Positions 49,918 through 64,000 of a stretch of DNA of 64,000 bases are shown piece by piece (positions within the stretch are counted from its first letter, which is position 1; each line of letters starts with the position of its first letter). The stretch is from Candidatus Moranbacteria bacterium GW2011_GWC2_40_12 (lineage in GTDB: Bacteria; Patescibacteriota; Minisyncoccia; Moranbacterales; UBA11712). Where the stretch lies: the NCBI GenBank assembly GCA_000995965.1, contig LBYD01000002.1, positions 71,889-135,888 of the forward strand, in the 5' to 3' direction. Below the pieces are notes generated by a model, which was not told the DNA's origin, ran no database searches, and saw nothing but the letters and a program-made list of their open reading frames with translations. Both the position numbers and the translations under genes were made by a program.

Positions 49918-51216
49918 ATGATATACAAACATTCGTATTTCAAATTAGACGCCGAAAGCAAAAAGGTCTTTGATGAAAACAATAAAGAGCTGGCGCTAAC
50001 GGGCAACGCTTATCGTTTGCTTGTTTTCTTGTGTGATAAAAGAAATGCCACCATAACTGACATAAATGACTATTTCGATCCGGCAGGAGCCAAAGACTAT
50101 ACTGGAAATCATATCCGGCAGTATCGATATAAAATACATTCCATTATAGGCTATGGAATAATTGCCTATAAAAACAATATCTATTCAATAAATGGTACGA
50201 TCTCAAAATATAGAAATAACGCGGATTTAGAGTTGGCCACCATAAAAATACAGGAGTCTGAAAAAAATCAGGCGGAAAAAGAGACAGAAAAAAATGAGTT
50301 TGAAACATCTCGACGAAAAAGAAATAAATTGTCCAAAAAAGAAAAACTGGTTATTCCGTCCTTATTAGTCTTTTTGATAATTTTTAGCACGGTTGTTCTG
50401 AAAGATAAAAATAAAAATTACGGTATAGCTAAAAAATCAAATCTAGTCAACGAAATAGCGGAAAATTCGAATTTAAAGCCTCAAGGTGACATGCTATTGA
50501 TTCCGGCCGGGGAATTTTTCATGGGAAGCACCGAGAAACAAGCCATTGAAGCCTGGCGAAAAAATGACGGCGGTTATGATAAGGAGGATTATCTGGCGGA
50601 ATATCCCCAGCGAAAAATAATGCTTGGAAATTTTTATATCGATAAGAAAGAAGTGTCCAACAGCGACTATAAAATGTTTGTCGATGCACGAAACCATATT
50701 GCTCCCGCGCTTTGGAGCGATCAAAATCTCAATTCGCCGAGCCTTCCCGTTGTTGGAGTTGACTGGAATGATGCTGAGGCTTTTTGCCGATGGCTTGGGA
50801 AAAGATTGCCCACTGAAGCCGAATGGGAAAAAGCCGCTCGCGGACCAGACGGAAGAATTTGGCCTTGGGGAAATGCATGGGATCCGGCCAAGGATAATCA
50901 CGGCATGGGCACTGAATATGGCTTTGATGAAAGTGACGGTTACAAATACACCGCGCCTGTCGGCACTGAACTTGGCGTCAGTCCTTATGGAGCTTTGAAT
51001 ATGGCAGGTAATGTCTATGAATGGGTAGCTGATGATTTCAACGCTTATCCGGAAAATGACAAATATTCCCAGCAAGATTTCAATAAAGGATTCAAAGTTT
51101 TCAAAGGGGGGGCATATACCGATGGCCAAAGCGATCAACGTCCTGCCTCAAGAATTGGCTACCAAAAGGATTATAAGGATGTTGATATCGGTTTTCGTTG
51201 CGCGAAAAATGAGTAA
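49918..51216 (+). CDS. one-component membrane protein: CadC/OmpR-type winged-helix N-terminus, single TM, extracytoplasmic FGE-sulfatase (SUMF1-like) domain
   Basis: N-terminal LTGNAYRLLVFLCDKRNATITDINDYF (trans_reg_C-like), TM VIPSLLVFLIIFSTVVL, then FGE-sulfatase motifs (see finding 10). Confidence 0.55.
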   Translation: MIYKHSYFKLDAESKKVFDENNKELALTGNAYRLLVFLCDKRNATITDINDYFDPAGAKDYTGNHIRQYRYKIHSIIGYGIIAYKNNIYSINGTISKYRNNADLELATIKIQESEKNQAEKETEKNEFETSRRKRNKLSKKEKLVIPSLLVFLIIFSTVVLKDKNKNYGIAKKSNLVNEIAENSNLKPQGDMLLIPAGEFFMGSTEKQAIEAWRKNDGGYDKEDYLAEYPQRKIMLGNFYIDKKEVSNSDYKMFVDARNHIAPALWSDQNLNSPSLPVVGVDWNDAEAFCRWLGKRLPTEAEWEKAARGPDGRIWPWGNAWDPAKDNHGMGTEYGFDESDGYKYTAPVGTELGVSPYGALNMAGNVYEWVADDFNAYPENDKYSQQDFNKGFKVFKGGAYTDGQSDQRPASRIGYQKDYKDVDIGFRCAKNE

Positions 51217-53758: not shown

Positions 53759-54760
53759 TTATTTGCGAGTGTTTAACGTCGTTATCGGCCGCGATTGCGT
53801 AATGTAGAAATTCCCCTTTTCGAGCGCCCATTCGATGTCTTGAGGTTTTTTATAATGTTTTTCAACTCTATCGCAAAGTTTGGCTAATTCGACAATTTGC
53901 TTACTGGTCAGTTTCTGCTGATTTTGTTTTTTTCTTGAAACCGGCTTCCATTCTACACCTTCGCCTTTCTTTTTTATAATCATCCTTGATTGTTCGGAAA
54001 AATTTATATCAATGTTGCTAAATTCTCTTTTGTTCACCACATATGTGTCCGGCGTGATTTGGCCCGACACAATCGCTTCTCCCAGCCCATATCCAGCTTC
54101 AATCACCATTTGGTTTTTGTCTTCCGTCACCGGATGCACCGTAAAACAAACTCCGGAAATTTCCGACTGGACCATTTTTTGAACGACTACCGCGACGCTC
54201 ACCGGATAGGAATCTTTGATTTTTGATGTCCCAGCCCGAATTTTTTGCTGGTGCTTTTTTGAAAATACCCCTTTTTCAAAGGCGTAGAACAAGGCCCTTT
54301 GCGTAAAAAGCGACGACCAGCATTTTTTGATGTTTTCAAAAATATTTTTTTCGGTAGTGTTGAGATAGGTTTCGAGCTCGCCCGCCCAGGAAGCAACCGC
54401 CGAATCTTCGGCCGTTGCGCTGCTGCGTACCGCAACGTGCGGAGCTTTTAGTTTTTTGAATTCGGCTAAAAATAATTTGGCGAGATCTTTCGGCATGGGA
54501 ACGTCATGAATCATATCTCGGATTTCATGCGATGCTCTGTCCACCGAACTCATATCCTTATAATTTATTTTTTTTAGTATTGAAACAATATCAACTCCAA
54601 GATCCGTTTCTTCCAAAAAACGGTCGAAGGCGTCAATGATAATCACAAATCCCGGCGGGACCGAAATCCCCGCCTGTGTCATTTCTCCCAACGATGCACC
54701 TTTCCCGCCGGCAATTCCGACATCTTTTTTTGAGATTTCTTTGAATGTTTTTGTGAACAT
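53759..54760 (-). CDS. stand-alone PPDK_N (PEP synthase/PPDK N-terminal ATP-grasp-type, PEP/pyruvate-binding) domain protein
   Basis: GGKGASLGEM, AVRSSATAED and DIEWA...FYITQSRPIT motifs. It has no His swivel domain or TIM barrel. Length 333 aa. Confidence 0.8.
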   Translation of the reverse strand: MFTKTFKEISKKDVGIAGGKGASLGEMTQAGISVPPGFVIIIDAFDRFLEETDLGVDIVSILKKINYKDMSSVDRASHEIRDMIHDVPMPKDLAKLFLAEFKKLKAPHVAVRSSATAEDSAVASWAGELETYLNTTEKNIFENIKKCWSSLFTQRALFYAFEKGVFSKKHQQKIRAGTSKIKDSYPVSVAVVVQKMVQSEISGVCFTVHPVTEDKNQMVIEAGYGLGEAIVSGQITPDTYVVNKREFSNIDINFSEQSRMIIKKKGEGVEWKPVSRKKQNQQKLTSKQIVELAKLCDRVEKHYKKPQDIEWALEKGNFYITQSRPITTLNTRK

Positions 54761-54772
54761 AATATTGGATTT

Positions 54773-55528
54773 TTATTTTTTAACTGTCAAAAGCGCTTCG
54801 AGATGCTGCCGCTGCGAAACTTCAACATCCCGGAATCCAATTTCTTGGAGCATTTTTACGAGTTCCCCCTCTCGCATGATAACACCAGGCTGCATATCCC
54901 CTTCGTAATGCCTAATCCATTCTTTTCTTTTTTCTTCATCCGGAATATTTTGAAACTGTTCGTTCGCGTATTTGATCTCTTTTTGAAATATATCCTCGTC
55001 ATCCGGCATAATCTTGTCCGCGGTGATGAATTCACCTCCAGGTTTCAAAACCCGATAAATTTCTTTTAGGACCGCTCTTCTATAATCATTTCTGAAATTA
55101 TGAATCGTGAATCCAGACGCGACTATCGAAACGGAATTATCCGGAATTTTTTTCAAAAATTTCAGCGCGTCATCTTGGCGAAGCTCGATCCTACCTTCCT
55201 TAATATATTGTCCCAAATTTTCCTGCGCTTGGCGAATCATCCCCGCGTCGTTGTCAGCACCGATAATTTTGACATTTGCATTGGCTTTGAGAATTTCTTC
55301 CGCCGTGAAGCCCTTTCCAGTCCCAATTTCCACGATTTCTGAAAAACCATCCGCATCAAGCTCTGGACTTTCAATATTTTTGACTGCCTTTGCCACTTCG
55401 CCTCCAACTAAACTCTGCATCTCGTCATGATGCGGCATGGCATAGCGGATTGTTTCCAGCTCCTGAAGCCTCGCAAACCGCTGATTAGGAATGATATTTT
55501 CATTTTCGTCTTTTTCCTCAAGAGTCAT
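54773..55528 (-). CDS. class I SAM-dependent methyltransferase
   Basis: Motif I VEIGTGKG and post-I LKPGGEF. Confidence 0.8.
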   Translation of the reverse strand: MTLEEKDENENIIPNQRFARLQELETIRYAMPHHDEMQSLVGGEVAKAVKNIESPELDADGFSEIVEIGTGKGFTAEEILKANANVKIIGADNDAGMIRQAQENLGQYIKEGRIELRQDDALKFLKKIPDNSVSIVASGFTIHNFRNDYRRAVLKEIYRVLKPGGEFITADKIMPDDEDIFQKEIKYANEQFQNIPDEEKRKEWIRHYEGDMQPGVIMREGELVKMLQEIGFRDVEVSQRQHLEALLTVKK

Positions 55529-55530
55529 AA

Positions 55531-56946
55531 TTATTTTCTTTTCAAAATTTTCACAACCCCCTTATCCGCATCCACCTCCACCAGATCGCCATCTTTGATA
55601 ACGTCCGTCGCGACGTGAGTTCCAACTAAGCAGGGTATTTTTAGCTCCCGAGAAATAATCGCCGCGTGTGACAGCAGGCCTCCTTCGTTCGTTACCAGAG
55701 CACTTGCCTTGCCGGCTATATCCATAACATTCGGCTGGGTCATTTGGGTCACAAGGATCTGCCCTTTTCGGAATTCTTTTCTTAAGCGTCTTGCATTTTC
55801 AATATCACCGGATAGTAAAATTTTTGCAACACCTCTAGCAATTCCAGAATTCGCCGAAATGCCTTTTATTTCATTGGTTTTAGCTATTTCATACAGCTCT
55901 TTTAGCTCTCTCTTCGCTAGTTTTTCAGCTTGAATGCCTGATTTGTATATGGCCCTGTTGTTTTTCCACAACACAGCGAAGCTTTTTTTTCTGTCCTTCC
56001 TTTCCTTTTCGGACAATTTTTTTCCTCTTATTAAAACTGCCTGAATATCTTTGAGAAGATATATTTTCTCTAAATTCACGATGGACTCGCCCGTTCTTTT
56101 CCCGATTTCTTCGAACAGGGGGATACAATTATAGTCGCTTCCCGCCCAAAGAGATTTTATTCTCATTCTTGCTAGCGCGAATTTTTGCAATACATCAACT
56201 AATTGCTTAATATTATTATACTTTTTTATAATTTTAGCCTGCTCCTGCCTCAACTTTTTCTTCTCTGCAATTATATTTTTTAACTTTTTATTTTTTTTGT
56301 CTTGCCTAAACCTTTCATTTATCGTATCTTGCGCTTCTTGTCTTGTTGAGTGAAAAAAAACAAGCCAGGGGTATTTTTCCAGATGACTGTTTATCATTTT
56401 CCTTGAAAAAGGTTTTATTAGAATTTTCTGCCAATCAATGAGCTCCTTATTGACTTCGTCTAATTCGACTGGCGTCATGAGCGCCAAAGCGTCTTTTTTT
56501 GAAACAGATTTTTCTAATTCCTTAACCAAATAATGCATCCCTTCTGCTTGCGTAACCTTGAATATCCCTATCGCGTATGACCATAATTTCACTGATTTTT
56601 CAACATATTTCAGCAAGGCTAGGTTTGACAGCTTTCTAAAATTTGCTTTTCTCAATTCTTTGTAAAAAGAATCGTATTCCCGACAAAATTTCTCTACTAT
56701 ACGAAAATAATTATCAATAGATTTTTTCTTGAGAAATATTTTCCCTTTCTCTGTGTTTGCTTTGAAATCTTTTTTGGAATAATAGTATGAAATATTATTA
56801 TTCCGGGAAATAGCAAAAGCTCGTTCAATTTTATTCCATGGGACAACCGCCTTGTATTTCGAATAAGAAATAATCTGATTCTGAAGCGTCTGGTGAAACT
56901 GAAAAGCGCTCCAAAAATATTTGTATGGAGATTTGCTCTTTTTCAT
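55531..56946 (-). CDS. PEP-utilizers (phospho-His swivel) domain protein with unknown 370-aa N-terminal domain (paralog 1)
   Basis: C-terminal ILVTQMTQPNVMDIAGKASALVTNEGGLLSHAAIISRELKIPCLVG matches the mobile His domain of PpsA/PPDK/RPH. Confidence 0.75.
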   Translation of the reverse strand: MKKSKSPYKYFWSAFQFHQTLQNQIISYSKYKAVVPWNKIERAFAISRNNNISYYYSKKDFKANTEKGKIFLKKKSIDNYFRIVEKFCREYDSFYKELRKANFRKLSNLALLKYVEKSVKLWSYAIGIFKVTQAEGMHYLVKELEKSVSKKDALALMTPVELDEVNKELIDWQKILIKPFSRKMINSHLEKYPWLVFFHSTRQEAQDTINERFRQDKKNKKLKNIIAEKKKLRQEQAKIIKKYNNIKQLVDVLQKFALARMRIKSLWAGSDYNCIPLFEEIGKRTGESIVNLEKIYLLKDIQAVLIRGKKLSEKERKDRKKSFAVLWKNNRAIYKSGIQAEKLAKRELKELYEIAKTNEIKGISANSGIARGVAKILLSGDIENARRLRKEFRKGQILVTQMTQPNVMDIAGKASALVTNEGGLLSHAAIISRELKIPCLVGTHVATDVIKDGDLVEVDADKGVVKILKRK

Positions 56947-56966
56947 GAGAAAAAATTTAATCAGAA

Positions 56967-57899
56967 TTATTTAATCTCCTTCTCTTCAAAATCTCGGAAT
57001 TGCGCAATCACTTTTCCATCGTCATCTACTCGGAATCTTATTTCTTCGCAGTTTTTCATCTCAATTTCCTGGTTTCCGTTTTCTTTTTGGAAATATTCGT
57101 TCAGGAAGTAGCCAAAAACGTCCACATGGCTATTGCCGACAACCCTAATATTTTTGGAATGATTCAAGTGATTCTGCTGATGGACTTTTGCTCCATGTTC
57201 GATCAACTTGATAATTTGCGAAAACTGTTTTTCGAATTTGTCTTTTGCCGTGATTGCGTGAGGAAATAATTGCTGGATCGCTTCCGAATGGCGGTAATAA
57301 TTTCCCCACCAGGAACCCTGATCGTCCGCATTTATAATTTCCCGGGATTTCATCCATTTTTCTTTGACGTCTATTTCTTCAAGAGCTTCCCAATTGATGT
57401 CTGTCCGCAAATACTTGTCGGGATTATAAATCCCGATCAGGAGGGCATCCTTGACACTGAGTCCTAGCGCCCTGATAACTCTGATTTTTTCAAACGGAAT
57501 ATCCTGGACATGCTTTCCCGATCTTTTTTCTTCATCATGCCTTATTATTTCAAACCCTCTCCTTTCCGCTTCCTCAAGATATATTTTTGTCGTGCTCAAA
57601 GACCTGTCCTCCTCGCTCGAAAAAAACAAAAAAGCGTCCTTTTGCGGATCGAATTGGTCAAAAAATTTGACCGCCGCCTGCAGGGCAATTTCAATTCCTT
57701 GTTCCGTGAGATCAAAGACTTGATCCTTATAGTCAACCGGGCCGGTAGGTGTTTCTGATTTTTCAACGCGAGCATAGTTTTTATATTGGCTCGCCGAATG
57801 CCTGATTATATGGGCAGTAAACAAAGACTGTTTCTCGTCTTCCTTTTTTTCCGTTGCCGCATCAGCGATCACAGTTTCCCCTTCAATTTTTTTTAACAT
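56967..57899 (-). CDS. histidine-phosphatase-superfamily-like protein
   Basis: N-terminal HIIRHSAS (RHG-like) and later VVGNSHVDVF (second His motif). Tentative. Confidence 0.35.
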   Translation of the reverse strand: MLKKIEGETVIADAATEKKEDEKQSLFTAHIIRHSASQYKNYARVEKSETPTGPVDYKDQVFDLTEQGIEIALQAAVKFFDQFDPQKDAFLFFSSEEDRSLSTTKIYLEEAERRGFEIIRHDEEKRSGKHVQDIPFEKIRVIRALGLSVKDALLIGIYNPDKYLRTDINWEALEEIDVKEKWMKSREIINADDQGSWWGNYYRHSEAIQQLFPHAITAKDKFEKQFSQIIKLIEHGAKVHQQNHLNHSKNIRVVGNSHVDVFGYFLNEYFQKENGNQEIEMKNCEEIRFRVDDDGKVIAQFRDFEEKEIK

Positions 57900-57964
57900 A
57901 AATTTAAACCTAAAAATTACCTGAAATATTTCAGCTTACAAATTCCGCTCTGCTTTCAAAAACA

Positions 57965-58561
57965 CTAAAAATCAAACTTCTTTTTTTCTTCCTGGCGTAA
58001 ACGATCGCTTAATCTTGCTCGATAATTTTGCACCAGATTTTTTATTAATTCTGGTCGCGACTCAATGTTGAAACCCAAATTTCTTAGATCATAACCTATG
58101 CTGTGTATTGCCCTTTGAATCATTTCTTCGTTGTAGATTATTTTTTCTCCGTCAGATTTCCTTGTTCTATCCTCGATTAATTCTGGTTTTATTTCCACTT
58201 CTGCAATATTTCCTTCTTTATCCACATATAATAGTTCGATGTAAGGATGCTTTATAAGCATAGCGGTTAGGCTGCCGAATCCCGGCACAATTCTTGATGT
58301 TGCTTCGGGTGGTAATTGCGGTATTTCATTTGCCAACATAACAATCTTTTTATGAAGTCGAATATAGCTCGCCAAATCCTTTGCTCTTCCTTCTTTTTCA
58401 AGCTTTTCCTGCATTTGCGGCATTTCCTCTTTTTTTCCGACAAGAATTGCCGCACCGCTGTCGGGGGTTTCGGATTCAAAACCCTCCTCATTGAGACCCT
58501 TTTTTACCTCCGGGTCGATTTCCATGTTTGGCATAGATTCTCCTCTTTCCTTATATGGCAT
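57965..58561 (-). CDS. hypothetical protein
   Basis: 198 aa, acidic N-terminus, no recognisable motif. Confidence 0.4.
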   Translation of the reverse strand: MPYKERGESMPNMEIDPEVKKGLNEEGFESETPDSGAAILVGKKEEMPQMQEKLEKEGRAKDLASYIRLHKKIVMLANEIPQLPPEATSRIVPGFGSLTAMLIKHPYIELLYVDKEGNIAEVEIKPELIEDRTRKSDGEKIIYNEEMIQRAIHSIGYDLRNLGFNIESRPELIKNLVQNYRARLSDRLRQEEKKKFDF

Positions 58562-58595
58562 GCTGCCAACTTCGGAAAGAAATAATTATGGTTGC

Positions 58596-60144
58596 TTAAA
58601 TTGTATACAAAACATCTTTCACGACAAGTCTTTCCCGCCCTTCCACGAATTTATCATATCCAAATTCAAGGTATTTTGAAAGAAACAGGGCTTCTTCTTT
58701 CGTTTTTATTTTGTAATCAGGATTATCCTTTTGTATTTTCGAAAATGCCGCGTCGGATACCAGTTTTTCCGCCAGTTCGGACAAAAGGCCGTCCGATTTT
58801 GTGTAGTTCATCCCGATTTTCATTCCGGCGCCGTTGGCAAACGGCACTTTCTCGCGATATGCAATATATTTCGGAAGACATTTTGAAGCTATTCTCCTGA
58901 GAATCATCTTTGTGAAATCTTTCCCCTTATATTTCCCAACTTTAAAAGAGCCAGGAAGCGACATGGCATATTTCACTATTTGCGTATCGAAGAAAGGGCA
59001 ACGGGTTTCAACCGCGTGTCTCATTGCCAATTTGTCAATCCTCATAAGATTCCCTTTTGACATGGAATCGAGAAGCATTTTGCATCCAAGATTGATTTTT
59101 GATTTATCAATTTCCAAAAATTCATTGTATCCGGCAAAAATTTCGTCAGATCCCTCGCCGGTGAGCACAACTTTGTATCCCAAATTATGTGCGAATTTTG
59201 ATATCACGTTATTGGCAAAGGAATGCCGGACTATATTTGGATCATACGTTTCGAGATGATATATGACGCCAGGCAATTCTTTTTCATAATCTATATCCGG
59301 ATCAACTATTTTATATTTCCATTTCTTTTTCCTGCATAAGCCGATAGCCGCCTTATAGTCCGACGAATCTTTGTATCCCAATATCAGAGCTGTCACATCC
59401 GGATGGAATCTTGTCGCAAGTTCCATCACAAGACTGCTGTCAACTCCTCCGCTTAAAAATACAGCTATCGGAAATGTTGTTTGCACTCGTTTTTTCACGG
59501 CATCTTCTATTAGGATAGACAACTCTTTTGAAGCATCTTCTCTGGTGATTTTCTTTTCCGTTACTGGCAAATGAAAATACTTGTGAAATTTTCCTTTGTA
59601 GAAATAATTTCCGGGAGGAAACTCGTGGATCTTTTTTATGCCGGGAAGACTGATTAGCGCTTTTATCTCTGATGCTAGATAAAAATTATTATTGTTGCAA
59701 AATGCGTAATAAAGAGGCTTGACACCCAGAGGATCGCGCGCCGCAAAAACTTTCTCTTTTTTCACGTCATAAACAGCGAAAGCAAACATTTCAGAATCAA
59801 TCTTAATGTACCATTTTCTCTTTGTATTCTTCCCATAAATGAGGCAAAATTTCGGTGTCGTTTTCCGTTTTGATGATATGACCAAGAGACCGAAGTCTTT
59901 TTGCGAGCTTCACATGATTGAAAATTTCGCCGTTCTGGGTCGCATAAATTGTTTTTTCTTCGTTTGCTTTCGGCTGTCTCCCGGACTCCTCATCTACGAT
60001 TGCAAGCCGATTAGCGCCAAGGGCAGCACCTTTAAAAACTTCGTATTCATAAGGGTGATTTCCCCGATGTTTGATCTCTGAAAGAGCTTTTTTGATCTTT
60101 TTTCTGTTATCCCTATGTGATCCTATTATGGCTATCCCGCACAT
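58596..60144 (-). pseudogene. asnB: asparagine synthetase (glutamine-hydrolysing) AsnB-type amidotransferase, interrupted by a 1-nt frameshift
   Basis: The N-terminal Ntn glutaminase fragment (MCGIAII...) ends at 59803. The synthetase domain (SEMFAFAVYD..., PP-loop AVFLSGGVDSS) continues in the +1 frame from 59885. Deleting one A from the A4 run in GAGAAAATGGTAC restores ...LWEEYKEKWYIKIDSEMFAFAVYD. Confidence 0.7.
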
Positions 60145-60161
60145 ATAGCTTTCGAAAATGA

Positions 60162-61742
60162 TTATTTTTTTGTGTTCAATAATCTTACAACCCCTCGAAC
60201 GGCGTCCACTTCAATTTCGTCTCCTGTCCTGACAATTCTCGTGGCAATTCGAGTGCCAACAACGCAGGGCAGTTTGAATTCACGGCTAATGATCGCTGCG
60301 TGGCAGGACATTCCGCCTTCATCCGTCACCACCGCGGTAGCTTTCCGGAACACGGGAATAAATTCTATTGTGGTCATATAAGTGACCAGAATTTCTCCTT
60401 TTTTGAATTCCGAAATTCCCGACGCGTCTTCAAGCACTCTGGCAATTCCCCGGATTTTCCCTCTCGAGGCTGCCAATCCTTTGAACTGCGAAATGTTCGC
60501 ATATTTTTTGAACGGCTCACCGATGTTTTCTTTTCTTATCAACACTTCGATATTTTTTTTGCCGGAAATGATATTCATTTCTCCCTTTTTTATAACAATC
60601 CCAAATCCATTCTTTTGCCTGTCAGCAATTTCTTTTTTTGAAATTATTTTTCCGGTCTTCAAAAATTCTCCGACTTCGGGATACGAGCAATATAAGATAT
60701 CATCTCTGGTTATGCCGGCCCTTCTGGCAACTTCATCCAGCAGATTATTGTAGCTCAAAAGCGCCTTGGTGAAATATCCCTTTGCCCAGTCCCTTTGGGC
60801 AATAAGCTCCGAAAGGGCATCAAGCGCGTGCACTACGTCTTTCGGAGGCTTCAGCTCTGTGATAATTTTCTGCCTTTGCTTGTTCAGCTGGGCAAAATTA
60901 TCCAAGATTTCTCTCAACTTTTCATCTGGTTTTTGTTTAGCGACAATGGCTTGTCTGAAAAGATCAACCCATTTTTCTCTCGACCAGCCCCCACTAACAT
61001 ATTCCGTGTTGATCCACTCATATTTTTGGATATGTTTTTCAAACAATATATTTTCGCGTTTATAACTTCTCAATTTCAGCGAAATATTTTTGTTGTTTTC
61101 ATTTTCAAATAAGCTTCTAATTTTTTTATTTTTATAAAGTTCCAACGCGACTTGATGGAAATTCTTCTGTTCGGTAAAAGCAACAGTCTCGCCCGTGTTG
61201 ACGGAAAGCAGTTCTTTGTAGGCTTGAAATTCCCTCTCTTTTTTCAATTCTTTCAGGCGTTTTCTCAAAAATTTGATTATCCGCCAGTTTTCATCAAAGC
61301 ACGCTTCAATTCCCCAAAGCTGAACGGTTATCAAAGGGCAGGCCATTATCGCTTCGATAAATCCGTCGTAAAGTTTTTTTAATTCATTATTCGACAGCAA
61401 GGACAAATTGTCCTGGTCGATTTCCATGCATTTGAAAAATACCGCACCGAATATTTCATTTGTTCTTTTTCCGAAATCCCCGACAAAGTTAGGATTACTG
61501 TCGATGCTTCTTTGGACATCTTTGTATTTGTCTTTGCTTGAAAACTGGTTTTTGTCATAGAAAACATAGCAGCCTTTCCCGGGAACACCGACGACTATCT
61601 GGCAGTCGAACCAAAAGTTGACCACCGGCGCCCAGCCCCTGCCTTTCATCCCGTGCATGAGAAAACTGAAGTGATGAAGGCTGGCATTTCTCCGATGCGC
61701 CCAGAACCAGATTACTTTTTTGCTATTTTTTTTCTTGGCCAT
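60162..61742 (-). CDS. PEP-utilizers (phospho-His swivel) domain protein with unknown 420-aa N-terminal domain (paralog 2)
   Basis: C-terminal ILVTYMTTIEFIPVFRKATAVVTDEGGMSCHAAIISREFKLPCVVG. Confidence 0.75.
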   Translation of the reverse strand: MAKKKNSKKVIWFWAHRRNASLHHFSFLMHGMKGRGWAPVVNFWFDCQIVVGVPGKGCYVFYDKNQFSSKDKYKDVQRSIDSNPNFVGDFGKRTNEIFGAVFFKCMEIDQDNLSLLSNNELKKLYDGFIEAIMACPLITVQLWGIEACFDENWRIIKFLRKRLKELKKEREFQAYKELLSVNTGETVAFTEQKNFHQVALELYKNKKIRSLFENENNKNISLKLRSYKRENILFEKHIQKYEWINTEYVSGGWSREKWVDLFRQAIVAKQKPDEKLREILDNFAQLNKQRQKIITELKPPKDVVHALDALSELIAQRDWAKGYFTKALLSYNNLLDEVARRAGITRDDILYCSYPEVGEFLKTGKIISKKEIADRQKNGFGIVIKKGEMNIISGKKNIEVLIRKENIGEPFKKYANISQFKGLAASRGKIRGIARVLEDASGISEFKKGEILVTYMTTIEFIPVFRKATAVVTDEGGMSCHAAIISREFKLPCVVGTRIATRIVRTGDEIEVDAVRGVVRLLNTKK

Positions 61743-62646
61743 GTTTCATTTTTTCTAAATCAATTAAACCCTCAAATTTTTTTCCCGGATAAAATTCTCC
61801 TGCCACTTTAATTTTGGGAGGATCGGAATTAATAAAATCTATCTCAAATGATCCTGATTCCCTAATAATTCCACCAGTTTTTTTGAAGAATTCTTCCGAC
61901 GCCAGTTCCTCTGCGCTCATCCCATCCTCAAAAACCAAATATTTTTTGAGAAATGCCATCACCGGAAAAGAATGCGTCACATCAATCTGGAGATACGGAT
62001 CGCCGGCAGGCTGTTTGCCTCCGGCTTCTTTTTGCCTGTCCAATAAATTCAGATGATGGCTAAATCCAAAATAGCGCTTCGCAAAAATATCTGCAAGCTC
62101 ACCGTAGGTCGTTTCAAAGCGCCTGGCCGGAAACGGATCATTTTCTTCATCAAACATTTCGGACAAAACCTTCATATCCATCCTGTTCCTTATTTCCGCT
62201 TCTTTTGCTTCGCCATTTAGATCCGGATATTCTTTTTCTATCTCTTCAACAATCATTGGCTGCATTTCTTTCTGCATAGCGACAATCCTGCCAAGATCCG
62301 CTGCGTACTTTTTTTCCTTGGCGTCTTCGAGCGGTTGAAATGGCACTTCAAGTTTTTCATCTTTTCTGATATATTCTTTGGTCCGATGGCTCGTGCCACT
62401 CAATTCCTCCTGGGCGATATTCGCTGTATCCACAGCTCTTTGCACAGAGCTTGTAGCAACTCGGGCAAGCCCGATCCCATCCTTAGCATCCAATTTATCA
62501 AAGCCTTGCCTGACTGAATCATCAAAATACGCAGCTTTGGCATTTTTTTCTCCCGCCGCGCTAAGTTTCGGACCGTGGCGAAAAACAATAACTCTCAAAG
62601 TCACTTTTCCCTTGCTATCAAGATTTATTTCTTTTTCTATTGACAC
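61723..62646 (-). CDS. histidine-phosphatase-superfamily protein
   Basis: LRVIVFRHGPK (RHG motif) near the N-terminus and a later THS motif. Length 307 aa. Confidence 0.45.
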   Translation of the reverse strand: MSIEKEINLDSKGKVTLRVIVFRHGPKLSAAGEKNAKAAYFDDSVRQGFDKLDAKDGIGLARVATSSVQRAVDTANIAQEELSGTSHRTKEYIRKDEKLEVPFQPLEDAKEKKYAADLGRIVAMQKEMQPMIVEEIEKEYPDLNGEAKEAEIRNRMDMKVLSEMFDEENDPFPARRFETTYGELADIFAKRYFGFSHHLNLLDRQKEAGGKQPAGDPYLQIDVTHSFPVMAFLKKYLVFEDGMSAEELASEEFFKKTGGIIRESGSFEIDFINSDPPKIKVAGEFYPGKKFEGLIDLEKMKHGQEKK

Positions 62647-63968
62647 TATTTTTTCCTTTTTATTATCTTGATTATACCACGATCCGCGTCCACTTCCACG
62701 AGATCGCCATCGTGCAAAACTTTGGTCGCGATTTTCGTGCCGATGATGCAGGGCTTGTTAAGCTCGCGTGAAACAATCGAGGCGTGCGAAGTAATACCTC
62801 CCTCATTGGTGACAAAAGCGCCGGCTCGTTCCATAAGAGGAATAAAATCCACCGAGGTCATGGCAGTGACAATAATATCGCCGTCTTTGAATTTTCCAAA
62901 ATCTTTTTTTTCCAGAATTATTTTAGCTGTCCCCACTATTTTCCCCTTATTTGCTATCATACCTTTGATTTCCCCGCCCACTGATATTTTATCCTCGTCT
63001 TTGATGCTATTTATTTCATCAATGAAAGGCACTATTTCTTTCTTCGTCAGGATTTTGTAACCTGGCAATGCATCGGCATAAATAATTCCCGTCCAATCTC
63101 TATTTTTAATTATTCGAGCAATTTTTTTGTCATTTTCAAAATGCAACTTGAAAATTTCCTCAGGTGTCAACTTCCAGCAATCCCTCCAATCTTTCGATTC
63201 ATTATCCAGCGCAATTTCTTTGAATAATGGCCGATAAGCAAGACTGGCCCGGCAGAATACATATTTGCGATATTCATTGAGGATTGTTCCTACTTGCAAA
63301 ACCTCGGCCAGCTGCGTAATTTCGGCATTCTTTTTCTCTTTGAGTTTTCTCTTCGCTATTTTTATTTTTTCTTTATGGTTTTGCAGTATATTTTCTTTCT
63401 CTTTTTTGCAATCATACTTATTGAGCGCCATCAGTTGTTTCATTATGTCCTTTCTCGTCCACGGATCCTCATTGAAATTCACAGGTACAAAATGATACTT
63501 CGCATAATATTTTTCGAAAATCTCTGAAGCTTTCGGAAATTTTTTTATATTATTTGTCTTTATCCCGTGTTTTCGTAAATATATGCATAAATCGAGCAAA
63601 TCAAGCCGAGATTCCACTAGGGGGGTGTGTTTTGGAGGGTAAGTGATTTCCGCAACCAGAAATTCAAGCTCATTCTGGCCAATATTCGGATAATATAATC
63701 TTAATTTATCAACCAGCAATCCGTGGACGAGTCTCCCGATAGCCGTGGTTATATATAGCCCCGCCGACAAATTGAGATTGGCCTTTATGTAGTTTTTATA
63801 TTCCCGCTCGCCCGCCTTTTTTTCCAATGCATCACTTGCTCCCAATAAATTATTGCCGTGTTTTTGGTAAGCTGATTGTAGTTTTCCAAATTTAGCTGGA
63901 TTCAAACATATTTCGCAAATTTTTTTGTGATAATTGTCTGAATTATCTTGGCTATGATGAGCAAACAT
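62646..63968 (-). CDS. PEP-utilizers (phospho-His swivel) domain protein with unknown 340-aa N-terminal domain (paralog 3)
   Basis: C-terminal IIVTAMTSVDFIPLMERAGAFVTNEGGITSHASIVSRELNKPCIIG. Confidence 0.75.
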   Translation of the reverse strand: MFAHHSQDNSDNYHKKICEICLNPAKFGKLQSAYQKHGNNLLGASDALEKKAGEREYKNYIKANLNLSAGLYITTAIGRLVHGLLVDKLRLYYPNIGQNELEFLVAEITYPPKHTPLVESRLDLLDLCIYLRKHGIKTNNIKKFPKASEIFEKYYAKYHFVPVNFNEDPWTRKDIMKQLMALNKYDCKKEKENILQNHKEKIKIAKRKLKEKKNAEITQLAEVLQVGTILNEYRKYVFCRASLAYRPLFKEIALDNESKDWRDCWKLTPEEIFKLHFENDKKIARIIKNRDWTGIIYADALPGYKILTKKEIVPFIDEINSIKDEDKISVGGEIKGMIANKGKIVGTAKIILEKKDFGKFKDGDIIVTAMTSVDFIPLMERAGAFVTNEGGITSHASIVSRELNKPCIIGTKIATKVLHDGDLVEVDADRGIIKIIKRKK

Positions 63969-64000
63969 GATTGATCCGTTTTTTACGACGAATAAGTGTT

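What the first reader, a model, noticed from the sequence alone, without database searches (positions are those of the whole stretch)
53759..63968. Operon encoding a split RPH/PEP-synthase-like phosphotransfer system: one ATP-grasp (PPDK_N) protein in trans with three paralogous substrate-domain + phospho-His swivel proteins, plus methyltransferase, two His-phosphatase-family proteins and an AsnB-type amidotransferase
Seen in sequence: nine consecutive minus-strand genes with gaps or overlaps of about 0-35 nt and one 64-nt gap.
- Three paralogs (55531-56946, 60162-61742, 62646-63968) share only their C-terminal roughly 100 aa. That region is a textbook PEP-utilizers mobile domain with consensus I.VT.MT.....GAFVT.EGG..SHAAI.SRE...PC..GT. 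Their 340-420-aa N-terminal regions are mutually dissimilar and show no ATP-grasp motifs.
- A separate 333-aa protein (53759-54760) is a complete PPDK_N ATP/pyruvate-binding domain. It has no His domain and no PEP-binding TIM barrel.
- Between them lie a class I SAM methyltransferase and two proteins with RHG/RHS and second-His motifs of the histidine-phosphatase fold.
- The operon also contains a 198-aa hypothetical gene and an AsnB-type amidotransferase (frameshifted).

Established knowledge: in PEP synthase, PPDK and rifampin phosphotransferase (RPH), the ATP-grasp domain phosphorylates a swivel-domain His, which then delivers the phosphoryl group to a substrate held by a third domain. RPH has the order ATP-binding, substrate-binding, C-terminal His domain.

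Inference: here the ATP-grasp module is encoded once and may act in trans on three different substrate-binding/His-carrier proteins. That would give a modular small-molecule (or protein) phosphorylating system with tailoring enzymes, either a biosynthetic or a xenobiotic/antibiotic-modifying cluster. The His-phosphatase-like proteins could reset the phospho-His carriers, by analogy with SixA. Nothing like this split arrangement is a standard annotated pathway.
Basis: partly seen in the sequence, partly recalled or inferred. Interest (0 to 1): 0.85.

Follow-up and report, generated by a model that had tools for sequence, protein, structure and literature searches.

The report
One ATP-grasp kinase, many phospho-carriers
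A Moranbacteria (CPR) genome encodes one ATP-binding kinase subunit and eight divergent rifampin-phosphotransferase-like partner proteins; the split design is already known from aromatic-degrading bacteria, but this one-to-many array, common in tiny symbiotic bacteria and archaea, is undescribed and its substrates are unknown.

Summary
The observation largely holds. Pfam finds PPDK_N only in 53759-54760 and the PEP-utilizers swivel only at the C-termini of the three paralogs; the catalytic His is invariant.

Corrections:
- The operon runs past the window edge. On the source contig (GCA_003489455.1) it has 18 genes and eight carriers for one ATP-grasp gene.
- The third paralog is cut by the window (492 aa, not 440).
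- The N-terminal regions are divergent homologs. An AlphaFold model (pLDDT 93.5) matches only rifampin phosphotransferase over its full length.

The split itself is not new: PpsAB, CreHI and HpeHI are characterised two-component dikinases. The one-to-many arrangement is new. Of 61 Patescibacteria/DPANN loci with a stand-alone PPDK_N, 48 have carriers nearby. All 120 carriers are on its strand.

Natural fusions (PPDK_N + two carriers; carrier + PPDK_N) support action in trans. The methyltransferase, AsnB and 198-aa genes are not conserved partners. His-phosphatase-like + carrier pairs recur. Substrates are unknown.

Verdict: new variant of a known kind, interest about 0.6.

The parts
53759..54760 (-). 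Stand-alone ATP-grasp subunit (PPDK_N only, 333 aa). It is the last gene of the operon and corresponds to PpsB/CreI/HpeI.
   Evidence: - Pfam PF01326 E 1.6e-96, covering 3-315 of 328 profile positions, with no other domain.
- PDB sequence matches over the full length: PEP synthase 8a8e 2e-63, RPH ATP-grasp 5hv6 1.6e-59, HpeI 9goj 2.8e-47. Motifs GGKGA.LGEM, VAVRSSATAED, DIEW and QSRPITT are conserved.
- 61 stand-alone homologs of about 310-340 aa in Patescibacteria/DPANN loci.
54773..55528 (-). Class I SAM-dependent methyltransferase (251 aa). An accessory gene, not conserved with the array.
   Evidence: - Pfam Methyltransf_25/11/12/31 (E 3e-17 and weaker). Every NCBIfam hit (CpaM and UbiE-type models best) is below its cutoff.
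- A homolog is present in only one of 80 related loci.
- A carrier-methyltransferase fusion exists (P0195), but its methyltransferase is only weakly similar (E 0.001 over 45 aa).
55531..56946 (-). Carrier P8 (471 aa): RPH-type helical domain plus C-terminal phospho-His swivel.
   Evidence: - PF00391 at residues 392-463. The catalytic His aligns with the invariant column.
- The N-domain has 269 representatives at E<=1e-3. These include fusions with PPDK_N in both orders and a PPDK_N + two-carrier protein that is 27% and 32% identical over P8's full length.
- A P8-like carrier follows the HP310 homolog in L089.
56967..57899 (-). HP310 (310 aa): probable divergent histidine-phosphatase-fold partner of P8. 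Not proven.
   Evidence: - No Pfam or NCBIfam hit.
- R33, H34 and H258 are invariant in the small family alignment, which shows an RHS...SSxxxRxxxT...SH motif pattern.
- hhalign against the HP307 profile gives E 0.0016 with the SH motifs in register.
- Four of six sub-threshold PDB hits are phosphoglycerate mutases.
- NCBI names a 60%-identical homolog 'histidine phosphatase family protein'.
- Homologs directly precede carriers in L089 and L090.
57965..58561 (-). 198-aa hypothetical protein of unknown function. An accessory gene.
   Evidence: - No Pfam or NCBIfam hit.
- Only a weak PADLOC SduA/DUF4263 hit (E 5e-4).
- No homolog in the 80 related loci.
58596..60144 (-). AsnB-type glutamine amidotransferase/asparagine synthetase, interrupted by a frameshift. 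The two ORFs are 59803-60144 and 58596-59885, and the extra A lies in the A-run at 59814-59817.
   Evidence: - GATase_7/GATase_6 in the first ORF; Asn_synthase E 1.3e-49 in the second.
- NCBIfam asparagine synthase B (PRK09431) 277 bits, below the cutoff of 499.
- The sequence at the frameshift was read directly.
- The same split occurs in L002, which is 100% identical DNA from another sample.
- Absent from the 80 related loci.
60162..61742 (-). Carrier P7 (526 aa): RPH-type substrate-binding-like domain plus swivel. It belongs to a well-conserved family.
   Evidence: - PF00391 at residues 446-517.
- AlphaFold2 pLDDT 93.5, pTM 0.88.
- Foldseek: only RPH-Lm (5fbu, 5fbt, 5hv1) matches the full length, at E about 1e-16 and TMq 0.57.
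- The family profile aligns to RPH residues 512-866, E 7e-36.
- 81 homologs of the N-domain; those near full length are about 500-530 aa, nearly all carry only PF00391 and none carries PPDK_N. Source names include Patescibacteria/Parcubacteria and one Woesearchaeota.
61723..62646 (-). HP307 (307 aa): histidine-phosphatase-fold protein with a large helical insertion. It is the dedicated upstream partner of P7, and its stop overlaps the P7 start by 20 nt.
   Evidence: - AlphaFold2 pLDDT 91.2, pTM 0.91.
- Foldseek top 50 are all histidine-phosphatase superfamily members.
- R23-H24-G25, R70 and H225 are invariant in 34 homologs.
- The ortholog precedes the P7 ortholog in L003 (45% identity) and L009.
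62646..64000 (-). Carrier P6, cut by the window end. The true ORF is 492 aa and starts at about window coordinate 64124 (L001:9845-11323).
   Evidence: - PF00391 at residues 360-431 of the 440-aa in-window part and at 412-483 of the full ORF.
- The full ORF was read on L001.
- The extra N-terminal 52 aa align with the N-terminal strands of the other carriers.

Best explanation
The locus encodes a multi-carrier, two-component small-molecule dikinase system of the RPH/PpsAB/HpeHI type.

Mechanism, by analogy with HpeHI and RPH:
1. The 333-aa ATP-grasp protein binds ATP.
2. It phosphorylates, in trans, the conserved swivel-domain histidine of each carrier. There are eight carriers in the genome and three in the window.
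3. The phospho-His swivel then swings back to the carrier's own RPH-like helical domain.
4. There it passes the phosphoryl group to a bound acceptor.
5. The net reaction is ATP + X + H2O -> AMP + X-P + Pi.

Each divergent N-domain is inferred to specify a different acceptor. One ATP-grasp subunit would therefore serve a panel of specificities.

Two carriers, P7 and P8, each have a dedicated upstream histidine-phosphatase-fold partner. I infer that this partner acts on the same phosphorylated product as a phosphatase or phosphomutase. Less likely, it dephosphorylates the carrier's phospho-His.

The methyltransferase, the frameshifted AsnB and the 198-aa gene are lineage-specific passengers or tailoring genes, not core parts.

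Shown: the domain architecture, the folds, the invariant His, the conserved clustering and the natural fusions.
Inferred: phosphotransfer in trans, one substrate per carrier, and the small-molecule nature of the substrates.
Unknown: the identity of the substrates.
For: Architecture and folds:
- PPDK_N occurs only in one protein, and the swivel only at carrier C-termini.
- The catalytic His is invariant in all eight carriers.
- The P7 model matches only RPH over its full length, and the match is also seen by sequence profile.
- The ATP-grasp protein aligns over its full length with HpeI, the RPH ATP-grasp domain and PEP synthase, with conserved nucleotide-site motifs.

Biochemical precedent:
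- HpeHI, CreHI and PpsAB each need both components.
- In HpeH the conserved His is essential, and HpeH alone transfers phosphate between substrates (PMC12167813).

Genomic association:
- 61 loci have a stand-alone PPDK_N. Of these, 48 have at least one carrier and 28 have at least two.
- All 120 carriers are on the same strand as PPDK_N: 105 upstream and 15 downstream.

Rosetta-stone fusions:
- PPDK_N + P8-like domain + swivel (P0136, P0140).
- Carrier + swivel + PPDK_N, the gene order seen here (P0164).
- PPDK_N + two complete carriers (P0131, P0133, P0153).

Other points:
- The operon is tightly packed.
- A separate, complete PEP synthase exists at 15358-17847, so the split genes are not pieces of it.
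- His-phosphatase-like + carrier pairs recur in L003, L009, L089 and L090, with more found by motif.
Against: - No biochemical data exist for any member of this clade, and no substrate is known.
- Some carriers lie more than 10 kb from any PPDK_N gene (L003, L005, L007, L089). Which ATP-grasp protein charges them is therefore unproven. The full-length PEP synthase or another donor cannot be excluded.
- Known two-component dikinases are 1:1 pairs. Their carriers are larger (HpeH 71 kDa), and the window's ATP-grasp protein scores lower against HpeI than against PEP synthase or RPH. This is a separate lineage, so the analogy could fail in detail.
- PigC and RedH have the same fold but act as ligases via a phosphorylated intermediate. 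'Kinase' may therefore be too narrow for some carriers.
- A kinase encoded next to a phosphatase for the same product looks futile unless another step intervenes.
Confidence: 0.68

Rival explanations
1. Detoxification array. The carriers are RPH-like enzymes that inactivate diverse antibiotics or xenobiotics by phosphorylation. The array would give an episymbiont living on antibiotic-producing or stressed hosts a variable resistance panel that shares one ATP-grasp subunit. This concerns the class of substrate and is compatible with the main mechanism.
For: - RPH is the only full-length structural match.
- The carrier complement is hypervariable between conserved flanks in close relatives: one carrier in L009, two in L010, at least seven in L048 and eight here.
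- Few clear orthologs exist across 80 species representatives. That pattern is typical of accessory, adaptive genes.
Against: - All NCBIfam RPH equivalog scores are far below their cutoffs, for example 79 against 999.
- The P7 family is strongly conserved, with 55-77% identity across many metagenomes, and it extends to Woesearchaeota. That looks more like a fixed metabolic role.
- Dedicated phosphatase-fold partners and embedded riboflavin genes are not expected in a resistance array.
- There were no PADLOC or other defence hits.
Confidence: 0.15
2. Biosynthetic or tailoring cluster. The carriers act like PigC/RedH, activating a substrate by phosphorylation so that it can be condensed. Together with the methyltransferase and the AsnB-type amidotransferase they would build a specialised metabolite or surface modification. 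This is essentially the first reader's biosynthetic option.
For: - P7 aligns to the RedH ligase model over residues 192-523 (E 6.7e-31).
- The methyltransferase, AsnB and the carriers sit in one tightly packed operon.
- A carrier-methyltransferase fusion protein exists (P0195).
- From my own knowledge, not tested here: an RPH-like kinase (Cj1418, L-glutamine kinase) acts with methyltransferases in Campylobacter O-methyl phosphoramidate synthesis.
Against: - AsnB is frameshifted.
- In the 80 related loci the methyltransferase has a homolog in only one, and AsnB and the 198-aa gene have none. In L009, PPDK_N follows P7 directly.
- The methyltransferase of P0195 is barely similar to the window's.
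- NCBIfam PigC and RedH scores are far below their cutoffs.
- No other biosynthetic core enzymes are present.
Confidence: 0.08
3. Protein phosphorelay, PTS-like. The carriers' helical domains dock proteins, not small molecules. Phospho-His would pass from the swivel to the RHG histidine of the His-phosphatase-fold partner, which then acts as a phosphotransferase or mutase. Alternatively, the partner is a SixA-like phospho-His phosphatase that resets or regulates the carrier.
For: - There is a strict, recurrent adjacent pair of His-phosphatase-like gene followed by carrier gene, with translational coupling.
- The His-phosphatase fold uses a phospho-His intermediate at RHG, and RHG, R70 and H225 are invariant.
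- The swivel domain is the same module that PTS enzyme I uses.
Against: - Six of the eight carriers here have no such partner, and across loci most carriers are preceded by another carrier (53 of about 141).
- The closest structural matches of HP307 are small-molecule phosphatases and phytases with cap domains, not SixA.
- In RPH and HpeH the homologous helical domain binds small molecules.
- One distant partner (L007) has RAG in place of RHG.
Confidence: 0.07
4. Non-functional or unrelated pieces. The stand-alone PPDK_N and the carriers would be decayed fragments of PEP-synthase or RPH genes, or they would work independently of each other.
For: - One gene in the operon (AsnB) is frameshifted.
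- Some carriers are short, for example P4 at 351 aa.
- Array content is unstable between relatives.
Against: - The catalytic His and the ATP-site motifs are intact.
- The P7 family shows strong purifying conservation, with many near-invariant columns.
- The models are of high confidence.
- Stand-alone PPDK_N proteins of constant length occur in 61 loci across many classes and in DPANN.
- All 120 carriers lie on the same strand as PPDK_N.
Confidence: 0.02

Closest known systems
Two-component small-molecule dikinases: phenylphosphate synthase PpsAB (Thauera, Aromatoleum), CreHI (Corynebacterium), HpeHI (Rhodococcus); PMC12167813
   Same: - A separate ATP-grasp protein (PpsB, CreI, HpeI) works with a second protein that carries an RPH RIF-binding-like domain and a C-terminal swivel with the catalytic His.
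- Going by the gene names (ppsAB, creHI, hpeHI), the carrier gene appears to precede the ATP-grasp gene, as here; the papers' gene maps were not checked.
- The window's ATP-grasp protein aligns to HpeI (9GOJ) over its full length, E 2.8e-47.
   Different: - The known systems are 1:1 pairs acting on phenolic substrates in aromatic catabolism, in Proteobacteria and Actinobacteria. Their carriers are larger (HpeH 71.1 kDa).
- Here one ATP-grasp gene sits with eight carriers of 351-526 aa, in a Patescibacteria genome with no aromatic-catabolism context.
- The ATP-grasp protein scores higher against PEP synthase and RPH than against HpeI, so this is a separate lineage.
- No PpsC-like stimulating subunit was seen.
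Rifampin phosphotransferase (RPH-Lm; PDB 5FBT, 5FBU, 5HV1)
   Same: - It is the only solved structure that matches a carrier over its full length, covering the substrate-binding domain and the swivel (E about 1e-16).
- It has the same His-swivel chemistry.
- The stand-alone PPDK_N matches the RPH ATP-grasp domain at 1.6e-59.
   Different: - RPH is one polypeptide in the order ATP-grasp, RIF-binding domain, swivel.
- Here the ATP-grasp is a separate protein encoded downstream of the carriers.
- NCBIfam RPH equivalog cutoffs are missed by a wide margin.
- There is no evidence for rifamycin as a substrate.
PigC and RedH prodigiosin/undecylprodigiosin ligases
   Same: They have the same three-module family (ATP-grasp, central domain, swivel). 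P7 residues 192-523 align to RedH 539-879 (E 6.7e-31).
   Different: - They are single-polypeptide ligases that use phosphorylation to activate a substrate for condensation.
- The scores here are far below the equivalog cutoffs.
- There is no prodiginine context.
PEP synthase and PPDK
   Same: They share the ATP-grasp and swivel modules. The GGxT[C/S]H motif of most carriers is of the PEP-synthase type.
   Different: - No PEP/pyruvate-binding TIM barrel (PEP-utilizers_C) occurs in any cluster protein.
- The genome has a separate, complete PEP synthase at 15358-17847.
Histidine-phosphatase superfamily (PhoE, dPGM, phytases/acid phosphatases, SixA, RosC) - for HP307 and probably HP310
   Different: - HP307 is too divergent for Pfam or NCBIfam and for a PDB sequence-profile search.
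- It carries a helical insertion of about 95 residues.
- It is encoded as an obligate upstream partner of a dikinase carrier. No paper describing this context turned up in the literature searches.

Membership tests
Two-component small-molecule dikinase (PpsAB/CreHI/HpeHI type) | A separate protein that consists only of the ATP-grasp (PPDK_N) domain | tested here: met
   Pfam gives PPDK_N only, covering 3-315 of 328 profile positions, in a 333-aa protein. The protein aligns to HpeI (9GOJ) over its full length.
Two-component small-molecule dikinase (PpsAB/CreHI/HpeHI type) | A second protein with an RPH RIF-binding-like domain followed by a C-terminal swivel domain | tested here: met
   PF00391 lies at the C-terminus only. 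The P7 model matches RPH over its full length, and the profile aligns to RPH residues 512-866. A structure was modelled for P7 only; the other carriers are assigned by alignment.
Two-component small-molecule dikinase (PpsAB/CreHI/HpeHI type) | Conserved catalytic His in the T/SxxGGxxxH swivel motif | tested here: met
   The His and the two Gly residues before it are invariant in the alignment of all eight carriers and in 69 P7-family sequences.
Two-component small-molecule dikinase (PpsAB/CreHI/HpeHI type) | The two components are encoded together, one carrier per ATP-grasp gene | tested here: not met
   They are encoded together, but at a ratio of 8:1 here. Related loci have 0 to 7 carriers (at least 250 aa) per stand-alone PPDK_N, and up to nine swivel-domain hits in L024.
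Two-component small-molecule dikinase (PpsAB/CreHI/HpeHI type) | Close sequence kinship with the characterised members (HpeH, CreH and PpsA are about 45% identical to each other) | tested here: inconclusive
   Only the ATP-grasp side could be compared. The match to HpeI is 2.8e-47, weaker than to PEP synthase (2e-63) or RPH (1.6e-59). No HpeH, CreH or PpsA sequence was available to compare with the carriers.
Two-component small-molecule dikinase (PpsAB/CreHI/HpeHI type) | ATP-dependent phosphorylation of a small molecule that requires both components and yields AMP + Pi | not testable with these tools
   This needs purified proteins and candidate substrates.
Rifampin phosphotransferase (RPH) | A single polypeptide with ATP-grasp, RIF-binding and swivel domains that reaches the NCBIfam equivalog score | tested here: not met
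   The domains are on separate proteins. NF041857 scores are 284, 79 and 60 against a cutoff of 999.
PEP synthase / PPDK | A PEP/pyruvate-binding TIM barrel (PEP-utilizers_C) in the same enzyme | tested here: not met
   PF02896 is absent from every cluster protein. It is present only in the separate 829-aa PEP synthase at 15358-17847.
Histidine-phosphatase superfamily (HP307, 61723-62646) | The alpha/beta core fold of the superfamily | tested here: met
Histidine-phosphatase superfamily (HP307, 61723-62646) | Catalytic RHG histidine, the phosphate-binding Arg and the second His | tested here: met
   R23, H24, G25, R70 and H225 are invariant in 34 family members. Their positions in the active site of the model were not inspected.
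Histidine-phosphatase superfamily (HP307, 61723-62646) | Reaches the Pfam His_Phos_1 or His_Phos_2 gathering score | tested here: not met
   His_Phos_1 scores 13.4 bits against a cutoff of 21.7. The PDB sequence-profile search found nothing. hhalign against the neighbouring His_Phos_1 protein was not significant.
Histidine-phosphatase superfamily (HP310, 56967-57899) | Fold and catalytic motifs of the superfamily | tested here: inconclusive
   R33, H34 and H258 are invariant. hhalign against the HP307 profile gives E 0.0016 at 16% probability. Phosphoglycerate-mutase hits are weak, E 0.018-2.
Asparagine synthetase B (glutamine-hydrolysing) | An intact ORF with an N-terminal Cys GATase domain and an Asn_synthase domain that reaches the equivalog score | tested here: not met
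   Both domains are present, but on two reading frames. PRK09431 scores 277 bits against a cutoff of 499.
Known anti-phage defence systems (PADLOC) | A match of the core proteins to a defence-system model | tested here: not met
   No hits for the ATP-grasp protein, the carriers or the His-phosphatase-like proteins. There are only generic methyltransferase matches and a weak SduA hit (E 5e-4) for the 198-aa protein.

The most novel reading that the evidence does not exclude
Patescibacteria and DPANN archaea may carry a branching phosphoryl-distribution system.
- One ATP-grasp 'charger' would load many interchangeable His-carrier proteins.
- Each carrier would feed a different acceptor.
- Some acceptors would be reached through a dedicated His-phosphatase-fold partner that takes the phosphate on its RHG histidine and acts as a transferase or mutase.

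Such a system would be an ATP-driven analogue of the PTS. It could replace conventional kinases that are missing from these ultra-reduced genomes. It could also account for some of the puzzling 'PEP synthase' annotations in organisms that lack glycolysis.
Probability: 0.1. Interest if true: 0.85.

Novelty: new variant of a known kind. Interest (0 to 1): 0.6.

Why it matters
- Annotation: pipelines call these genes 'phosphoenolpyruvate synthase/pyruvate phosphate dikinase' (source names). Metabolic reconstructions of CPR and DPANN genomes may therefore credit them with PEP-pyruvate chemistry they cannot perform, because the PEP-binding domain is absent. A 2026 preprint notes K01007 'PEP synthase' retained in DPANN orders without glycolysis. 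Whether split components contribute to that count was not tested.
- Genome investment: a genome of presumably small size, as is typical of this phylum, devotes about 19 kb to one ATP-grasp subunit and eight carriers. The content of the array changes between close relatives. This points to a flexible way of phosphorylating many compounds with a shared ATP-binding subunit. That bears on how episymbionts trap, activate or detoxify host-derived molecules.
- Enzymology: the arrays and the natural fusions (one ATP-grasp with two carriers) offer a ready-made test of modular, trans-acting swivel-domain phosphotransfer. They also provide a pool of uncharacterised specificities for biocatalysis.
- New families: the His-phosphatase-fold partner families are invisible to Pfam and add new members to that superfamily.

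Tried and rejected
- PADLOC scan: no defence-system match for the core proteins, so a defence reading was dropped.
- Promoter and terminator scans: counts were at shuffle level and say nothing about operon boundaries. The only notable site is a perfect -35/-10 for the divergent His_Phos_1 gene.
- Sequence-only tests of HP307: the PDB profile search gave no hit. hhalign against the neighbouring bona fide His_Phos_1 protein and against HP310 was not significant. Only structure prediction resolved the fold.
The profile tests are suggestive only.
- Orthology of the eight carriers across 80 species representatives: few clear orthologs, so 'eight universal housekeeping kinases' was rejected.
- Methyltransferase-carrier fusion (P0195) as support for the window's P8-methyltransferase link: the two methyltransferases are barely similar, so the support is weak.
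- AsnB as a lasso-peptide cyclase: 118 bits against a cutoff of 525, well below the AsnB match. Rejected.
- Frameshift as a sequencing artefact: unlikely, since it recurs in another sample's assembly. That assembly is 100% identical DNA, however, so it says nothing about evolutionary conservation.
- The afdb50 fold library was unavailable.
- Literature searches for a prior description of CPR/DPANN arrays found none in the searchable library. This does not prove absence elsewhere.

Full report
1. WHAT IS THERE

The gaps are 12, 2, 20, 65, 34 and 17 nt, and there are overlaps of 20 and 1 nt.

- PF01326 (PPDK_N) is found only in 53759-54760 (E 1.6e-96, nearly the whole profile).
- PF00391 (PEP-utilizers mobile domain) is found only at the extreme C-termini of 55531-56946, 60162-61742 and 62646-63968.
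- 54773-55528 is a class I SAM methyltransferase.
- The AsnB-type amidotransferase is split into two frames.

None of the cluster proteins has the PEP/pyruvate-binding TIM barrel. A complete three-domain PEP synthase (829 aa) lies elsewhere in the window at 15358-17847, next to pyruvate kinase. The split genes are therefore not fragments of the housekeeping enzyme.

2. THE CLUSTER IS LARGER THAN THE WINDOW

An exact-protein look-up places the window on contig DNMH01000011.1 of GCA_003489455.1 (locus L001). An identical copy of the 310-aa protein is recorded from Candidatus Moranbacteria GW2011_GWC1_45_18, so the organism is a Moranbacteria (Patescibacteria/CPR) bacterium.

Read on L001, the operon has 18 co-directional, tightly packed genes over about 19 kb. 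The order is:
- P1 (477 aa), P2 (491), P3 (489)
- RibK (fused to a PD-(D/E)XK domain), RibE, RibH
- P4 (351), P5 (482), P6 (492)
- HP307, P7 (526)
- AsnB (split), the 198-aa gene
- HP310, P8 (471)
- methyltransferase, PPDK_N

There are thus eight carriers for one ATP-grasp gene. Its ORF is 492 aa, and the 440-aa version starts at an internal Met. A bona fide His_Phos_1 gene is transcribed divergently from the upstream end.

3. THE CARRIERS

The eight carriers align over their whole length. The catalytic His and the glycine-rich loop before it (GGxT[C/S]H) are invariant.

Their N-terminal regions are very divergent but not unrelated. Several pairs are significant by BLAST alone: P2-P3 at E 1e-15, P1-P3 at 3e-10, P3-P7 at 5e-10. 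Identity is 22-28% over up to 380 residues.

Evidence for the fold of the N-terminal region:
- NCBIfam alignments already extend from the swivel back into the central domain of the RPH, PigC and RedH models.
- An AlphaFold2 model of P7, built on 69 homologs, is confident (pLDDT 93.5, pTM 0.88).
- In a Foldseek search of the PDB, only rifampin phosphotransferase (5FBU, 5FBT, 5HV1) matches over the full length (E about 1e-16, TMq 0.57, about 595 columns). Every other hit covers only the swivel.
- The P7 family profile also aligns by sequence to RPH residues 512-866 (E 7e-36).

The carriers therefore correspond to RPH without its ATP-grasp domain.

4. THE ATP-GRASP PROTEIN

It aligns over its full length with three solved structures:
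- PEP synthase (8A8E, 2e-63)
- the isolated RPH ATP-grasp domain (5HV6, 1.6e-59)
- HpeI (9GOJ, 2.8e-47; the identity of 9GOJ was confirmed in PMC12167813)

The motifs GGKGA.LGEM, VAVRSSATAED, DIEW and QSRPITT are conserved in these alignments.

5. THE SPLIT IS ALREADY KNOWN

PMC12167813 (J Biol Chem 2025) characterises HpeHI. It summarises CreHI and phenylphosphate synthase PpsAB as two-component dikinases in which both components are required. Its main points are:
- HpeI is homologous to the RPH ATP-grasp domain.
- HpeH is homologous to the RIF-binding and swivel domains.
- The conserved His is essential.
- HpeH alone moves phosphate between substrates.

The gene order here (carriers first, ATP-grasp last) appears, going by the gene names, to match ppsAB, creHI and hpeHI. 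It is the opposite of the domain order in RPH.

6. WHAT IS NEW: ONE-TO-MANY ARRAYS

A scan of species-representative genomes with the PPDK_N protein returned 80 loci. I called ORFs in each locus and searched them with the window's proteins.

Results:
- 61 loci have a stand-alone PPDK_N of about 310-340 aa. They come from many Patescibacteria classes (Moranbacteria, Falkowbacteria, Doudnabacteria, Buchananbacteria, Wolfebacteria, Kuenenbacteria, Portnoybacteria, Saccharibacteria and others), plus one Woesearchaeota locus (L077).
- 48 of these loci have at least one carrier within the fetched flanks, 28 have at least two, and 14 have at least four.
- All 120 carriers lie on the same strand as PPDK_N: 105 upstream and 15 downstream.
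- Several of the loci with no carrier are short contigs.
- The more distant hits (45% identity or less) are ordinary fused enzymes of PEP-synthase size.

The array is hypervariable between conserved flanks in close relatives:
- L009 (88% identical PPDK_N) has only RibK-RibE-RibH, HP307, P7 and PPDK_N.
- L010 has two carriers.
- L011 has one carrier.
- L048 (90% identical) has at least seven.
- The window genome has eight.

Few carriers have clear orthologs across the 80 loci. The P7 family is an exception. It has 81 homologs in metagenomes; those near full length are about 500-530 aa, nearly all carry PF00391 only, and none carries PPDK_N. One homolog (about 40% identical) bears a Woesearchaeota source name.

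7. EVIDENCE THAT THE ATP-GRASP ACTS ON THE CARRIERS

Beyond the clustering, an exhaustive HMMER search with the P8 N-domain found 269 representative proteins at E<=1e-3. Most are split carriers of 450-500 aa. The set also contains natural fusions:
- PPDK_N + P8-like domain + swivel, the RPH order (P0136, P0140).
- Carrier + swivel + PPDK_N, the gene order seen here (P0164). Its PPDK_N is 35% identical to the window's.
- PPDK_N followed by two complete carrier units in one polypeptide (P0131, P0133, P0153). The two units of P0131 are 27% and 32% identical to P8 over its full length.
- Tandem carrier-carrier fusions (P0127, P0128).

These fusions are classical Rosetta-stone evidence for a functional link. 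They also show that one ATP-grasp domain can serve more than one carrier.

Not every carrier is next to a PPDK_N gene. In L003, L005, L007 and L089 none lies within 10 kb. Charging at a distance, or by another donor, must happen there.

8. THE HIS-PHOSPHATASE-LIKE PROTEINS

Pfam does not support the assignment (E 0.062 for the 307-aa protein, nothing for the 310-aa one). Sequence-profile searches also fail.

For HP307 the fold evidence is clear:
- The model is confident (pLDDT 91.2, pTM 0.91).
- The top 50 Foldseek hits are all histidine-phosphatase superfamily members.
- R23-H24-G25, R70 and H225 are invariant in 34 homologs.

HP307 is therefore a divergent, probably active member with a large helical insertion.

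HP310 has only five database homologs. Its evidence is suggestive only:
- It has invariant R33, H34 and H258.
- hhalign against the HP307 profile gives a weak match in register (E 0.0016).
- There are sub-threshold phosphoglycerate-mutase hits.

9. A RECURRENT MODULE: HIS-PHOSPHATASE-LIKE GENE, THEN CARRIER

- HP307 overlaps the start of P7 by 20 nt, and HP310 precedes P8 by 20 nt.
- The HP307 ortholog precedes the P7 ortholog in L003 (45% identity) and in L009.
- HP307-family contigs coincide with P7-family contigs.
- HP310 homologs directly precede carriers in L089 and in L090/L091. In L090/L091 three successive pairs of a 274-306-aa no-Pfam protein and a carrier occur; two of those three partners are His-phosphatase-like (one has an RHG motif, one is an HP310 homolog).
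- Across all loci I looked at the gene directly upstream of each carrier (about 141 carriers). It is another carrier in 53 cases and an HMM-detected His-phosphatase-like ORF in 9. At least 7 more upstream ORFs show an N-terminal RHG or RHA motif by eye.
- HAD-like phosphatases and TrmB-type regulators also recur near the arrays.

By contrast, in the 80 related loci the methyltransferase has a homolog in only one, and AsnB and the 198-aa gene have none. AsnB carries a frameshift: an extra A in the run at 59814-59817. It is also present in an independent sample's assembly of the same strain. The block AsnB, 198-aa gene, HP310, P8 and methyltransferase looks like an insertion between P7 and PPDK_N relative to L009.

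10. MOST LIKELY MECHANISM

By homology with RPH and HpeHI:
1. The ATP-grasp protein phosphorylates the swivel His of each carrier in trans.
2. The swivel returns to the carrier's own helical domain.
3. It phosphorylates the acceptor bound there. The net reaction is ATP + X + H2O -> AMP + X-P + Pi.

The divergent N-domains imply different acceptors. The shared ATP-grasp subunit is an economical solution for a small genome.

The partner His-phosphatase-fold proteins most plausibly process the phosphorylated product, by hydrolysis after an intervening step or by mutase action. Resetting of the phospho-His carrier (SixA-like) or a His-to-His relay remain possible but are less favoured.

The class of substrate is open. 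The hypervariable content of the array argues for accessory, niche-dependent substrates such as scavenged metabolites or xenobiotics. The strong conservation of P7 with HP307 argues for at least one fixed metabolic role. The repeated embedding of RibK-RibE-RibH in or beside the arrays is noted but unexplained (L001, L009, L011, L035, L057, L090).

11. NOVELTY AND SCORE

- The domain logic and the split are known.
- The one-to-many array, its wide distribution in CPR and DPANN, the natural fusions of one ATP-grasp with two carriers, and the Pfam-invisible His-phosphatase-fold partner families were not found described in the searchable literature.
- Databases label these proteins 'phosphoenolpyruvate synthase/pyruvate phosphate dikinase' or 'phosphohistidine swiveling domain-containing protein'. 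That may mislead metabolic reconstructions of reduced genomes (compare).
- I rate it a new variant of a known kind, with interest about 0.6. It remains a worthwhile lead, because the substrates and the reason for the arrays are unknown.

Noticed in passing
window 15358-17847 (-) and 17941-19425 (-): A complete three-domain PEP synthase (PPDK_N + PEP-utilizers + PEP-utilizers_C, 829 aa) lies directly downstream of pyruvate kinase on the same strand. These are opposing PEP/pyruvate enzymes placed side by side.
   Followed up: partly
window 59814-59817 (A-run on the minus strand, 'GAGAAAATGG'): The AsnB frameshift is one extra A in a four-A run. Removing it restores ...EEYKEKWYIKIDSEMFAFAVYD..., which fits the AsnB consensus by my recollection of E. 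coli AsnB. The same frameshift is present in an independent sample's assembly (L002), whose DNA is 100% identical. It is therefore reproducible, but its evolutionary conservation and any programmed shifting are untested.
   Followed up: partly
L002:1-503 versus L001:9977 (about window 63992): The independent assembly L002 is identical to L001 from L001:9977 onward. Upstream of that point it carries the C-terminus of a histidine kinase on the other strand, not P5 and the start of P6. This is either a strain-level rearrangement inside carrier P6 or an assembly chimera.
   Followed up: partly
L001:5484-7344 (beyond the window end); also L009, L011, L035, L057, L090: RibK-RibE-RibH (riboflavin kinase, riboflavin synthase, lumazine synthase) are embedded in or beside the carrier arrays in several lineages. 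In L001 the riboflavin kinase is fused to a PD-(D/E)XK (PDDEXK_3) domain. It is unclear whether this reflects a flavin-related substrate or only inherited synteny. A canonical His_Phos_1 gene diverges from the array start, and a His-family phosphatase of riboflavin synthesis (9mmh) is among the structural matches of HP307.
   Followed up: partly
L090:3811-5889 (also in L091): A 692-aa protein has PPDK_N plus a swivel domain as its only Pfam hits, with no PEP-binding barrel. It sits among three pairs of a 274-306-aa protein and a carrier. It may be an ATP-grasp subunit that carries its own swivel.
   Followed up: no
L003:11572-13227: A 551-aa carrier has an N-terminal HTH_17/MerR-type DNA-binding domain and follows the P7 ortholog. 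TrmB-family regulators also recur next to carriers (L003, L005, L041, L089). This hints at regulation linked to the phospho-carrier state or to the substrate.
   Followed up: no
L005:9166-9990 and L007:9153-10004: In the Woesearchaeota locus L005 and in L007 (lineage not determined), the proteins upstream of the P7 orthologs (274 and 283 aa) are very divergent from HP307. One keeps RHG and the other has RAG at the aligned position, and both have 'LSHD' and 'GHIG' motifs. They may be a different phosphoesterase family or a degenerate partner.
   Followed up: no
L090:1418-2242, L013:5490-6338 (five members in four loci): A further family of 274-282 aa recurs directly upstream of carriers (N-terminus like '...IGISILEESDEILESLRRAQEVADIVIY'). 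It has no RHG motif and was not identified.
   Followed up: no
P0195: A 757-aa protein fuses a P8-like carrier to a C-terminal class I SAM methyltransferase. This echoes the window's adjacency of P8 and the methyltransferase, but the two methyltransferases are barely similar.
   Followed up: yes
window 44596-47640 (+), 49918-51216 (+), 51292-53709 (+): Three neighbouring genes were noted: a 1014-aa protein with two T2SSE ATPase units, a protein with an FGE-sulfatase domain after a roughly 190-aa N-terminal region without a Pfam match, and an 805-aa protein with four lamin-tail domains and a PKD domain. The last two are conserved downstream of PPDK_N in L011 and L048, with the lamin-tail-like gene also in L009 and L010. 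They mark the fixed flank of the variable array.
   Followed up: partly
window 5948-7633 (-): A 561-aa protein with Schlafen AlbA_2 and HATPase_c_4 domains sits in a low-GC stretch (35% GC at 6001-8000, against about 43% elsewhere). It may be a mobile or defence-related insert.
   Followed up: no
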